DNA of 50,781 bases from a virus, in IMG/VR virus record IMGVR_UViG_3300033075_000810. One strand, written 5' to 3'. The notes beneath the pieces were generated by a model that saw only the letters and a program-made list of their open reading frames with translations, did no database searches and was not told where the DNA came from. This document shows, in pieces, positions 42,821 to 44,536 of this stretch (the first letter of the stretch is position 1; each line of letters starts with the position of its first letter). The position numbers and the translations under genes were made by a program.

Positions 42821-44536
42821 TCAGGCCAGGCGGTCAAGGATCTTGCCGACCAGCGGGTGACGGACGATACCGCTCGGGGCGAACTTGACGATGCCCACGC
42901 CTTCAAGAGTCTCAAGCCTCTTGACGGCATTGTTCAGGGGGATATCGCCTTGCCAGCGGATATCGCTCTGGTCGGGGTCGCCGGTCACAATGACCTTGCT
43001 CCCCTCAGCGAAGCGACTCAGAAACATCTTCAACTGCATGTCGGTCGTGTTCTGTGCCTCATCGAGGATGATCACCGAGTCGTGGAACGTCCTGCCCCTT
43101 AGGTAAGCCAGGGGTGCGACCTCCAGGCAGCGGTTGATGTACTCCCTCTGGGGGCCGTCGTAGCCCACCAGCCTGCTGATGCAGTCATAGATCGGCATCA
43201 TGTAGGGGTGGACCTTCTCCTCAAAGGTGCCGGGCAGGTAGCCCAGGCTCTCGCCGGCCTCGACAATCGGCCTGGTGATGACGATCCTCTTCTTCCTCTT
43301 GTCGAGGAGTTCCTTGAGGGCGAACGCACATGCCAGGTGGGTGTTGTGCGTCACCACATAGTGGTCGGTAAGGTAGAGGTGATCCCTAGAGCCGACCATA
43401 ATGCACTGGGCTGGCTTGACACCAATCCTCTCTACCCTGTCGATGTATCGCTTGGGGGTATACTTCGTCCTGCTCCTGACCAGGGCCTTCTTCCTGCTCA
43501 GGAAGAAAGGCTGCACGCTGCCGGGCAGGTTTATACTCAGGGTGTAACTGTGCTTGCCTTTCTTGGCGGTTCCATCGGCATCCTTGTAGGATGGCTCTTT
43601 GACAGAGACACGGACAACGCCGCCAAGCGAGTTGACGAGGGTCGTGACCGACTGGACAAGCATCGGAGAAGTTGTCGAGTAGGACGGCTGACCGGATCTC
43701 CTGTCAACGGTGCCATCGGCATCCATCAGTCCCCGCAGCAGAGCCAGCCGCTGATCGACACTGCCTCGCAGGTATTCCTGGGGCACGAACTTGGTGTCGG
43801 CCTTGTGGCCCCACAGCCCCAGCCTCCTCAATTCATCCTTGTACACATTGCCGCCCCCACGCTTCTTTTTAACGAGCCTGCGTGTGAGTCTGTCGCTCTT
43901 GGACTGCTTCCAGTGATAGCCGCCGTCCACCTCCTGACCCACTTTCGCAAACACCTCGGGGTCAGCGGAGGTGACGCAGATGTTGCTGTTGGACAGACCG
44001 CCATCTCCGATCAAAACGCCCATCAGATATGGGCTGATCAGGTACTCCCTGCGTTGCATGGCAACCGGCTCAGTTACCGGGATGTAGAGCCGCCGCCGGG
44101 GCTGGCCGTCCACCCACCGGGCGATCTGTGCTGCATCGACCACGCGATCCTTCCACTTCCAGCAGGTGGAGCTAACCTTCCAAAGATGCTCGGGGCAACA
44201 GTCGGCATAGCTCCCGTCATGGAAATGGATTCTGACAATCTCCTTGTCGCCCTGCGGGAATACGCCGGTGACCGGAGCCGTGTTGCCGTCCGGCGTACAC
44301 ACGGTGTCACCAACTTGAATGTCACCCATTCTCTTGGGGCCTGCCGGTGTATGGACAATGCTGTCCAGGGGCTGTGCCTTGCCGGTGCCAGCCGGCCCCA
44401 ACAGGAACAGCACGTCGTTCTGCTCAAAGGCGGACCAGGCCAAACCCTGGTCGTGCAGGAAGTTCACATGGAACGCCCTCTTGCCAGACGTGACGCTCTG
44501 CTTCGTGGGCTTCTCTTCTTTGGTCTTACGAGGCAT
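42821..44536 (-). CDS. phoH: PhoH-like ATPase interrupted by an intein
   Basis: Walker A GPAGTGK, then a 345-aa insertion. After it the PhoH sequence resumes: THLACAFALKELL...DEAQN...GDPDQSD. The two exteins together give a normal 226-aa PhoH. Confidence 0.8.
   Translation of the reverse strand: MPRKTKEEKPTKQSVTSGKRAFHVNFLHDQGLAWSAFEQNDVLFLLGPAGTGKAQPLDSIVHTPAGPKRMGDIQVGDTVCTPDGNTAPVTGVFPQGDKEIVRIHFHDGSYADCCPEHLWKVSSTCWKWKDRVVDAAQIARWVDGQPRRRLYIPVTEPVAMQRREYLISPYLMGVLIGDGGLSNSNICVTSADPEVFAKVGQEVDGGYHWKQSKSDRLTRRLVKKKRGGGNVYKDELRRLGLWGHKADTKFVPQEYLRGSVDQRLALLRGLMDADGTVDRRSGQPSYSTTSPMLVQSVTTLVNSLGGVVRVSVKEPSYKDADGTAKKGKHSYTLSINLPGSVQPFFLSRKKALVRSRTKYTPKRYIDRVERIGVKPAQCIMVGSRDHLYLTDHYVVTHNTHLACAFALKELLDKRKKRIVITRPIVEAGESLGYLPGTFEEKVHPYMMPIYDCISRLVGYDGPQREYINRCLEVAPLAYLRGRTFHDSVIILDEAQNTTDMQLKMFLSRFAEGSKVIVTGDPDQSDIRWQGDIPLNNAVKRLETLEGVGIVKFAPSGIVRHPLVGKILDRLA
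43343..44377 (-). other. intein (Ala1 N-terminus, LAGLIDADG homing-endonuclease domain, C-terminal HN followed by Thr+1)
   Basis: AQPLDSIVHTPAG..RMGDIQVGDTV (block A-like), LALLRGLMDADGTVD (LAGLIDADG), DHYVVTHN|T. Confidence 0.65.

What the first reader, a model, noticed from the sequence alone, without database searches (positions are those of the whole stretch)
42821..44536. PhoH split by a 345-aa intein with Ala1 and a LAGLIDADG homing endonuclease
The insertion sits immediately after the Walker A lysine and ends in HN followed by Thr. The first residue is Ala rather than Cys/Ser, which implies a non-canonical (class 2/3-type) splicing mechanism. A block-F-like Cys (PAQCIMVG) is present 21 residues from the C-terminus.
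Basis: partly seen in the sequence, partly recalled or inferred. Interest (0 to 1): 0.55.

Follow-up and report, generated by a model that had tools for sequence, protein, structure and literature searches.

The report
Class 3 intein in phage PhoH
A phage phoH ATPase gene is interrupted, exactly inside its ATP-binding loop, by a self-splicing protein element (an intein carrying its own homing nuclease) of the well-described "class 3" type, so it is real but ordinary.

Summary
ORF 42821..44536 (-) encodes a 571-aa PhoH. A 345-aa insert (aa 54-398, nt 43343..44377) sits directly after the Walker A lysine (GPAGTGK|A...THN|THLA). Removing it gives a 226-aa PhoH colinear with solved PhoH (3b85) and with intein-free alleles, including one in a syntenic relative.

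The insert is an intein. It has a HINT splicing domain plus a two-motif LAGLIDADG endonuclease. The AF2 model has pLDDT 96, and its best fold matches are PI-SceI and other VMA inteins.

The insert carries the full signature: Ala1, His B:10, Trp B:12 (W119), Cys F:4 (C378), Thr G:5, His-Asn and Thr+1. Each aligns with W67/C118/T137/H138/N139 of the experimentally validated Msm DnaBi1 class 3 intein, and each is invariant or nearly so in about 100 relatives.

The family is very large (5,214 50%-identity clusters at E<=1e-30), mostly at the classic P-loop GK|T site. Class 3 PhoH inteins (mycobacteria) and a phage PhoH intein (Campylobacter phage IBB_35) are already published.

Verdict: a new member of a known kind, of low interest. 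Splicing itself is inferred, not shown.

The parts
42821..44536 (-). phoH precursor ORF (571 aa, 63.8 kDa, stop codon included)
   Evidence: Intact ORF. Pfam PhoH E 5e-59. The 11-nt overlap with the upstream gene is also present in syntenic locus L004.
44378..44536 (-). N-extein, aa 1-53, ending in Walker A GPAGTGK
   Evidence: It aligns with 3b85 residues 18-35.
43343..44377 (-). Intein, aa 54-398 (345 aa, 38.5 kDa): HINT splicing domain split by a LAGLIDADG endonuclease domain
44339..44377 (-). Block A, AQPLDSIVHTPAG. Ala1 (GCA) means there is no N-terminal nucleophile.
   Evidence: Position 1 is Ala in 95 of 101 relatives.
44174..44215 (-). Block B, GSYADCCPEHLWKV: His B:10 (H117), Trp B:12 (W119), and a Cys-Cys doublet at B:6-B:7 (C113, C114)
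   Evidence: H and W are invariant in 103/103 relatives. They align with H65 and W67 of 6bs8.
43481..44044 (-). LAGLIDADG homing endonuclease domain (about aa 165-352). Motifs at 43997-44026 and 43712-43741; putative catalytic D178 and D274.
   Evidence: PF14528 and PF05204. D178 and D274 align with PI-SceI D218 and D326. Fold match to PI-SceI, TliVMA and I-DmoI.
43367..43414 (-). Block F, PAQCIMVGSRDHLYLT. Cys F:4 is C378 (TGC, 43403-43405), the predicted initiating nucleophile.
   Evidence: Cys is invariant in 95/95 relatives. It aligns with C118 of 6bs8.
43340..43363 (-). Block G plus the +1 residue, HYVVTHN|T: Thr G:5 (T396), His G:6, Asn G:7 (N398), Thr+1 (T399)
   Evidence: T-H-N is kept in 94-95 of 95 relatives; the +1 residue is T in 84, S in 9, C in 2. 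It aligns with T137-H138-N139 of 6bs8.
42821..43342 (-). C-extein, aa 399-571, starting THLACAFAL. It holds the rest of the PhoH ATPase, including Walker B ILDEAQN.
   Evidence: It aligns with 3b85 residues 35-206, E 6e-40.

Best explanation
The 345-aa insert is a full-length class 3 intein (HINT splicing domain plus a LAGLIDADG homing endonuclease). It sits at the classic P-loop site of a PhoH ATPase gene from a large tRNA-rich phage.

Inferred mechanism, taken from validated class 3 inteins:
1. The precursor (63.8 kDa) cannot bind ATP normally, because Walker A is split between K53 and T399.
2. Cys378 (block F:4), activated by His117 (B:10) and positioned by Thr396 (G:5) and Trp119 (B:12), attacks the K53-A54 peptide bond. 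This moves the N-extein onto Cys378 as a thioester (the block F branched intermediate).
3. The N-extein is then transferred to the side-chain oxygen of Thr399 (+1).
4. Asn398 cyclises, assisted by His397, and releases the intein (38.5 kDa).
5. An O-N acyl shift yields the 25.4-kDa PhoH with an intact GPAGTGKTHLA motif.

At the DNA level, the endonuclease would cut intein-free phoH alleles around ...GGCACCGGCAAG|ACCCACCTGGCA... and spread the element by homing during co-infection.

What is shown here: the architecture, the exact boundaries, the signature residues, the fold, and the existence of empty-site alleles in relatives. What is inferred: the splicing chemistry and the endonuclease activity.
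For: - Exact colinearity of the exteins with solved PhoH 3b85 (K53->K35, T399->T36).
- Uninterrupted PhoH proteins of 85% and 77% identity exist. One is in a syntenic contig, L004, whose neighbouring genes are 48-94% identical. The empty sites read GPAGTGK|T(Y/H)LACAFA.
- W119, C378, T396, H397 and N398 align with W67, C118, T137, H138 and N139 of the Msm DnaBi1 class 3 intein. The roles of those residues are experimentally established (PMC5222942; PMC6195587).
- In about 100 relatives the signature residues are invariant or nearly so: Ala1 95/101, H-L-W 100-103/103, Cys F:4 95/95, T-H-N 94-95/95, +1 Thr or Ser 93/95. The same pattern holds in 145 more distant cluster representatives.
- The AF2 model has pLDDT 96 and pTM 0.93. 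Its best fold matches are PI-SceI, TliVMA and PhoVMA inteins (E down to 9e-18, TMq about 0.7), and class 3 DnaB inteins for the HINT part (TMt up to 0.86).
- Both LAGLIDADG acidic residues are present and align with PI-SceI D218 and D326.
Against: - There is no experimental evidence of splicing or homing for this sequence.
- The nearest intein relative is only about 50% identical, so activity cannot be transferred from a near-identical tested protein.
- Grafting the WCT triplet onto gp41-1 did not by itself give splicing (PMC7664689), so the signature is necessary but not sufficient.
- Intein GC content (58.8%) matches that of the exteins (60.2%), so composition gives no sign of recent mobility.
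Confidence: 0.85

Rival explanations
1. Class 2-type splicing (Mja KlbA-like). With Ala1, the +1 nucleophile attacks the N-terminal splice junction directly, and block F Cys plays no part.
For: Ala1 means there is no N-terminal nucleophile. PMC5222942 notes that inteins with the class 3 signature could in principle use either route until Cys F:4 is mutated.
Against: The complete WCT triplet that sets class 3 apart from class 2 is present (PMC7664689) and is invariant across the family. The +1 residue is Thr, a poor nucleophile for direct attack on an amide. By my recollection the class 2 prototype uses Cys+1; this was not checked here. Every WCT-bearing intein tested in PMC5222942 required Cys F:4.
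Confidence: 0.04
2. A decayed or inactive intein. The element no longer splices, or only cleaves, so this phoH copy is non-functional or yields only the precursor.
For: Inactive class 3 inteins exist, for example the Arthrobacter Arth_1007 intein pseudogene (title and abstract of PMC3196547). No activity data exist for this sequence. The closest PhoH relatives lack the intein.
Against: The ORF is intact. Every catalytic position of the splicing domain and both endonuclease acidic residues are retained. The exteins are full length and highly similar to intein-free PhoH. The model folds confidently. A 5.6-kb contig differing at one base was found in a sequencing run listed under a different source, which argues against an assembly artefact.
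Confidence: 0.08
3. Not an intein. It is a nuclease domain permanently fused into PhoH, or a bacterial intein-like (BIL) or other Hint domain that does not ligate its flanks.
For: BIL domains appear only at the bottom of the fold-match list (E about 1e-3).
Against: The insert splits the invariant GK|T of Walker A. Its removal restores a motif colinear with hundreds of PhoH proteins. Both halves of a HINT domain flank the nuclease. The C-terminus is His-Asn followed by Thr. The best fold matches are bona fide inteins.
Confidence: 0.01

Closest known systems
Mycobacterium smegmatis DnaBi1 (Msm DnaB-1) and M. chimaera DnaB1 class 3 inteins (PDB 6bs8, 6rix)
   Same: Ala1, insertion in a P-loop after GK, His B:10, Trp B:12, Cys F:4 and Thr-His-Asn all align. 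The HINT fold matches. The class 3 mechanism was demonstrated for these inteins (PMC5222942, PMC6195587, PMC7664689).
   Different: Those are mini-inteins without an endonuclease, in DnaB, with Ser+1 (as described for MchDnaB1 in PMC7664689) and Asp at B:7. This one is full length with a LAGLIDADG domain, in PhoH, with Thr+1 and Cys-Cys at B:6-B:7. Alignable sequence similarity is confined to short conserved stretches of the HINT domain.
Mycobacterial PhoH class 3 inteins (M. fortuitum and M. xenopi PhoHi; Kelley et al. 2018, PMC6195587 Fig. 6a) and the 21 bacterial PhoH inteins counted by Novikova et al. 2016 (PMC4760082)
   Same: Same host protein family. The mycobacterial PhoH inteins are presented there as class 3.
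   Different: Those are bacterial chromosomal genes; this one is in a phage-like genome. I could not retrieve those sequences to measure identity or confirm that the insertion site is the same.
Campylobacter phage vB_CcoM-IBB_35 PhoH intein (PMC3322345)
   Same: A phage phoH gene interrupted by an intein, reported in 2012.
   Different: The class and insertion site are not stated in the passage read. It was not compared at the sequence level here.
gp41-1 intein (cyanophage-like, class 1; PDB 6qaz) and its engineered WCT variant (6riz)
   Same: It is the best PDB sequence match to the N-terminal HINT half (E 1e-8 for 6riz, 1.3e-6 for the wild type; roughly 40% identity over 65 aa by eye). It shares the THN C-terminus and Cys at B:6.
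   Different: gp41-1 is a class 1 intein with Cys1 (PMC7664689). Phe sits at B:12 and Asp at F:4, as the engineered F65W and D107C changes in 6riz show. It has no endonuclease.
PI-SceI (yeast VMA1 intein) and the TliVMA and PhoVMA inteins
   Same: Same overall two-domain architecture, HINT plus a two-motif LAGLIDADG endonuclease. These are the best whole-model fold matches (TMq about 0.7). The catalytic Asp residues align.
   Different: They are class 1 inteins (Cys1) in V-ATPase subunit A, with only about 15-17% sequence identity.
Mycobacteriophage TerL1-a and other P-loop inteins (Kelley et al. 2016, PMC5050341)
   Same: The 'classic' insertion between the invariant Walker A Lys and the following Thr. 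Phage-borne class 3 inteins carry the WCT triplet.
   Different: The host gene is different (terminase, not PhoH).

Membership tests
Intein (HINT protein-splicing element) | An in-frame insertion whose removal restores a host protein colinear with uninterrupted homologues | tested here: met
   3b85 alignment: K53->K35 and T399->T36. Intein-free PhoH of 85% and 77% identity cover 100% of the spliced sequence. Empty-site DNA is seen in L004 and L005.
Intein (HINT protein-splicing element) | HINT fold with blocks A, B, F and G | tested here: met
   Sequence matches to gp41-1, DnaBi1 and Prp8 inteins. AF2 model pLDDT 96. Foldseek matches to inteins.
Intein (HINT protein-splicing element) | C-terminal His-Asn followed by Cys, Ser or Thr at +1 | tested here: met
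   H397-N398 | T399; conserved in relatives.
Intein (HINT protein-splicing element) | Protein splicing demonstrated (ligated exteins plus free intein) | not testable with these tools
   This needs expression plus SDS-PAGE or mass spectrometry.
Class 3 inteins | No Cys or Ser nucleophile at intein position 1 | tested here: met
   Ala54 (GCA). Position 1 is Ala in 95 of 101 relatives.
Class 3 inteins | Trp at block B position 12 | tested here: met
   W119 aligns with W67 of 6bs8; invariant in 103/103 relatives.
Class 3 inteins | Cys at block F position 4 | tested here: met
   C378 aligns with C118 of 6bs8; invariant in 95/95 relatives.
Class 3 inteins | Thr at block G position 5 | tested here: met
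   T396 aligns with T137 of 6bs8; 94/95 relatives.
Class 3 inteins | Ser or Thr at +1 (typical of the class, PMC5222942) | tested here: met
   T399. Among relatives the +1 residue is T in 84, S in 9 and C in 2.
Class 3 inteins | Obligate Cys F:4 nucleophile and a block F branched intermediate | not testable with these tools
   This needs a C378A mutant and detection of a thiol-labile branched intermediate.
Class 2 inteins (Mja KlbA type) | Lacks an N-terminal nucleophile and also lacks the WCT triplet; the +1 nucleophile attacks the N-terminal junction directly | tested here: not met
   The WCT triplet is present, and that is what separates class 3 from class 2 (PMC7664689). The +1 residue is Thr.
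LAGLIDADG homing endonuclease (two-motif, intein-associated) | Two LAGLIDADG motifs, each ending in a catalytic acidic residue, within the alpha-beta-beta-alpha-beta-beta-alpha fold | tested here: met
   PF14528 E 7e-11 and PF05204 E 3.7e-5. D178 and D274 align with PI-SceI D218 and D326; the catalytic role of those PI-SceI residues is from my own knowledge. Conserved as D/E in 99/107 and as D in 89/100 relatives. Fold matches to PI-SceI and I-DmoI.
LAGLIDADG homing endonuclease (two-motif, intein-associated) | Site-specific cleavage of the intein-free allele, and homing | not testable with these tools
   Only indirect support: closely related genomes carry the empty site.
PhoH (PF02562) P-loop ATPase | Match to the family model above its curated threshold, with Walker A and Walker B motifs | tested here: met
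   199.6 bits against a cut-off of 27. Walker A GPAGTGK/T is restored after conceptual splicing. ILDEAQN is present. The spliced protein matches 7,970 PhoH proteins at E<=1e-20.

The most novel reading that the evidence does not exclude
Splicing of this PhoH precursor may be redox-gated. The family carries a conserved Cys-Cys doublet at block B positions 6-7 (C113 and C114; 78/103 relatives each), at or next to the position of the Thr of the class 1 TxxH motif, which acts on the N-terminal scissile bond. One of these Cys could form a reversible disulfide with the catalytic Cys378 (F:4). PhoH would then mature only under reducing conditions in the infected cell, by analogy with the disulfide trap reported for Msm DnaBi1.

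A second, milder reading concerns evolution. This clade is about as close in sequence to the class 1 gp41-1 intein as to class 3 DnaB inteins. It may therefore be a natural link between the two classes, which bears on the argument that class 3 did not diverge directly from class 1 (PMC7664689).
Probability: 0.1. Interest if true: 0.4.

Novelty: new member of a known kind. Interest (0 to 1): 0.18.

Why it matters
It matters little beyond correct annotation. The phoH gene should be annotated as an intein-containing precursor with a 226-aa mature product, and the intein as class 3.

It adds a phage PhoH host to a very large family of P-loop class 3 inteins. It also fits the published proposal that phages are a reservoir of class 3 inteins.

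Practical points:
- A full-length class 3 intein with Thr+1 and an apparently intact endonuclease, together with a syntenic intein-free allele, gives a ready pair for testing homing.
- The conserved Cys-Cys doublet in block B is a small testable lead for conditional (redox) splicing.

Tried and rejected
1. I looked for further inteins of this family in the window. A family HMM was run against the six-frame translation, and only the phoH ORF hit.
2. A scan of IMG/VR viral contigs for close relatives found nothing.
3. Tori & Perler 2011 (PMC3133030), the key paper on the phage origin of class 3 inteins, is not held. The class definition was taken from PMC5222942, PMC6195587, PMC5050341 and PMC7664689 instead.
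4. Papers that mention both PhoH and inteins for Salmonella phage Marshall and cyanophage Mic1 place the intein in the terminase, not in PhoH. They are not precedents.
5. The 2025 actinobacteriophage intein survey does not mention PhoH.
6. The best cultured-phage hit, Vibrio phage 1.161.O, is a PIN-PhoH (PhoH2-type) protein carrying a related intein. It is not a short PhoH.
7. Class 2 was considered and rejected on the WCT signature. A fused nuclease or BIL domain was rejected on extein colinearity and fold.
8. I could not measure Cys-Cys distances in the model, because coordinates are not exposed by the tools. The redox idea stays untested.
9. dN/dS was not attempted, because the nearest intein homologue is only about 50% identical.

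Full report
**Observation.** The minus-strand ORF 42821..44536 is intact and encodes 571 aa.
- Pfam PhoH (PF02562) matches at E 5e-59 in two stretches. LAGLIDADG_3 (E 7e-11) and Hom_end (E 3.7e-5) lie between them.
- The Walker A motif GPAGTGK ends at K53.
- A 345-aa insert runs from A54 (GCA, 44375-44377) to N398 (43343-43345). It is followed by T399-H-L-A.
- Every element of the stated observation is therefore present at the stated coordinates.

**It is an insertion in an otherwise normal PhoH.**
- Solved PhoH 3b85 aligns in two pieces that abut exactly (K53->K35, T399->T36).
- The conceptually spliced 226-aa protein matches 7,970 PhoH proteins at E<=1e-20. The best are uninterrupted proteins of 231 aa (85% identity) and 222 aa (77%), each covering 100% of the query.
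- The 222-aa protein lies on an 18.3-kb metagenomic contig (L004) that is syntenic with the window. It has the same order of dUTPase, glycosyltransferases, a 130-aa gene overlapping the phoH start, phoH, a large repeat protein, an amidoligase and a sigma-like gene. The neighbouring proteins are 48-94% identical.
- At the DNA level, the empty sites in L004 and L005 read ...GGC/GGG AAG | AC(G/C) (T/C)AC CT..., encoding GPAGTGK|T(Y/H)LACAFA. This matches the window's flanks.
- So intein-free alleles of the same gene exist in close relatives of this genome.

**It is an intein with a homing endonuclease.**
- Sequence searches of the PDB hit the gp41-1 intein (E 1e-8 for 6riz and 1.3e-6 for wild-type 6qaz), the class 3 DnaB inteins 6bs8 and 6rix, Prp8 inteins, and PI-SceI for the central domain.
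- An AlphaFold2 model of the insert, built with an 82-sequence alignment, has mean pLDDT 96 and pTM 0.93.
- The best Foldseek matches for the whole model are PI-SceI, TliVMA and PhoVMA inteins (E down to 9e-18, TMq about 0.6-0.7). I-DmoI matches the nuclease domain. Class 3 DnaB inteins match the HINT part (TMt up to 0.86).
- The two LAGLIDADG motifs are LMGVLIGDGG (aa 171-180) and LLRGLMDADG (aa 266-275). They align with PI-SceI so that D178 and D274 fall on D218 and D326. That these are the PI-SceI catalytic residues is from my own knowledge.
- These positions are D/E in 99/107 relatives and D in 89/100 relatives. The endonuclease therefore looks intact.

**The class is 3.** Class 3 inteins are defined by the absence of an N-terminal nucleophile and a dispersed Trp(B:12)-Cys(F:4)-Thr(G:5) triplet, typically with Ser or Thr at +1. 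Cys F:4 makes the first attack and forms a block F branched intermediate (PMC5222942; PMC6195587; PMC5050341; PMC7664689).
- Here block B reads CCPE-H117-L-W119, block F reads AQ-C378-IMV, and block G reads VV-T396-H397-N398|T399.
- In the pairwise alignment with Msm DnaBi1 (6bs8), whose class 3 mechanism was shown experimentally, these residues fall on H65, W67, C118, T137, H138 and N139.
- Among 110 database homologues of the intein the conservation is: Ala1 95/101, His 103/103, Leu 100/103, Trp 103/103, Cys F:4 95/95, T-H-N 94-95/95, and +1 Thr 84 / Ser 9 / Cys 2.
- Class 2 is rejected because the triplet is present. The +1 residue is Thr.

**How common it is.**
- About 60 of the 110 word-indexed homologues are PhoH proteins with the intein at exactly this GK|T site. 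Others are in DnaB, SNF2, RecA-like, CHAP and other proteins.
- An exhaustive phmmer search of 1.84 billion cluster representatives found 17,742 proteins at E<=1e-3, 12,936 at E<=1e-10 and 5,214 at E<=1e-30. Many carry two or more copies.
- In the 145 newly retrieved representatives among the best 150, nearly all domains show H-x-W, Cys F:4 and a THN C-terminus with Thr or Ser at +1. Most follow a GK dipeptide.
- Published precedents exist. Class 3 PhoH inteins of M. fortuitum and M. xenopi appear in Kelley et al. 2018. Novikova et al. 2016 list 21 bacterial PhoH inteins. Kelley et al. 2016 describe the 'classic' Lys|Thr P-loop insertion. A phage PhoH intein was reported in Campylobacter phage IBB_35 in 2012.
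- Among cultured phages, the closest hit is a PIN-PhoH protein of Vibrio phage 1.161.O with a related intein, annotated only as a 'hedgehog/hint domain protein'.

**Context.**
- The window looks like part of a large phage genome. It holds a NAD-dependent DNA ligase, dUTPase, ParB-like, methyltransferase, phosphoesterase, amidoligase and glycosyltransferase genes, plus 31 tRNA calls.
- The identical protein is on record from a 114.8-kb JGI contig. A 5.6-kb contig from run SRR32380200 differs at one base.
- Intein GC content (58.8%) is close to that of the exteins (60.2%) and the window (60.8%).
- The nearest intein homologue is only about 50% identical, whereas the nearest PhoH exteins, which are intein-free, are 77-85% identical. 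This fits sporadic gain and loss of a mobile element, but it does not date the event.
- No other intein of this family is in the window.

**Mechanism and status.** The most likely mechanism is class 3 splicing.
1. Cys378 attacks the K53-A54 bond.
2. The N-extein is passed from the Cys378 thioester to Thr399.
3. Asn398 cyclises.
4. An O-N shift restores GPAGTGKTHLA, giving 25.4-kDa PhoH and a 38.5-kDa intein-endonuclease (masses).

The architecture, boundaries, signature and fold are shown here. The chemistry and homing are inferred from validated relatives. One caveat applies: grafting WCT onto gp41-1 did not suffice for splicing, so the signature alone does not prove activity.

Rivals are class 2 splicing (0.04), a decayed intein (0.08) and a non-intein fusion (0.01).

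**Verdict.** It is a new member of a well-known kind, and interest is low.

The one feature I could not find discussed in the papers read is the conserved Cys-Cys doublet at B:6-B:7. It could be a redox handle, but that is speculation.

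Noticed in passing
window 2157-17196 and 27615-28389 (- strand): ARAGORN tRNA genes, all on the minus strand. Four have irregular anticodon loops and are reported as 'tRNA-???' (10885-10959, 27615-27695, 27789-27860, 28115-28190). This is a very large tRNA array for about 50 kb of phage-like DNA.
   Followed up: no
window 28663-30615 (-) and 27600-28400 (-): A 650-aa TROVE-domain (Ro60-like) protein (Pfam E 2e-20; PHROG 'RNA-binding protein') sits next to the odd tRNA-like elements. There is also a sub-threshold Rfam YrlA (Y RNA-like) hit at 27912-28009 (28.9 bits against a gathering score of 69). This may be a phage Ro/Y-RNA module.
   Followed up: partly
window 40837-42807 (-): The gene immediately downstream of phoH encodes a 656-aa protein with at least 9 copies of a Y-x-GSGGITLGG motif spaced about 20 aa apart. 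It has no Pfam or PHROG hit. A 48%-identical homologue occupies the same position in L004.
   Followed up: partly
window 43085-43102 (-), PhoH aa 479-484 LRGR|TF; proteins P0050, P0051, P0055, P0059, P0066, P0076: Related class 3 inteins occupy a second PhoH site, between (A/S)(Y/F)(L/M)RG(R/K) and (T/S)F(N/D/H)(D/N), in six metagenomic PhoH proteins whose Walker A is intact. That site is empty in the window. Both sites read G-[K/R]|[T/S], which suggests site switching within one gene.
   Followed up: partly
window 44195-44200 (-), precursor C113-C114: There is a conserved Cys-Cys doublet at intein block B positions 6-7 (78/103 relatives each). At B:7, class 1 inteins have the TxxH Thr and Msm DnaBi1 has Asp. 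This could be a redox handle near the catalytic Cys F:4. The Cys-Cys distance could not be measured.
   Followed up: no
L002 715-3162 (Vibrio phage 1.161.O._10N.261.48.C5, MG592529.1, NVP1161O_150): An 815-aa PIN-PhoH (PhoH2-type) protein of a cultured Vibrio phage carries a related LAGLIDADG intein in its PhoH domain. It is annotated only as 'hedgehog/hint domain protein'.
   Followed up: partly
L004 (JGI 3300059965 contig, 18,286 bp) against window about 33900-50750: This is a syntenic relative of the window genome with an intein-free phoH. It also encodes DnaJ, thioredoxin and a UDP-glucose/GDP-mannose dehydrogenase-like protein, which suggests a large phage with many auxiliary genes.
   Followed up: partly
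proteins P0231-P0375: Many large proteins, up to 4,812 aa, carry two to five separate stretches matching this intein. Multi-intein hosts are therefore common in this family.
   Followed up: no
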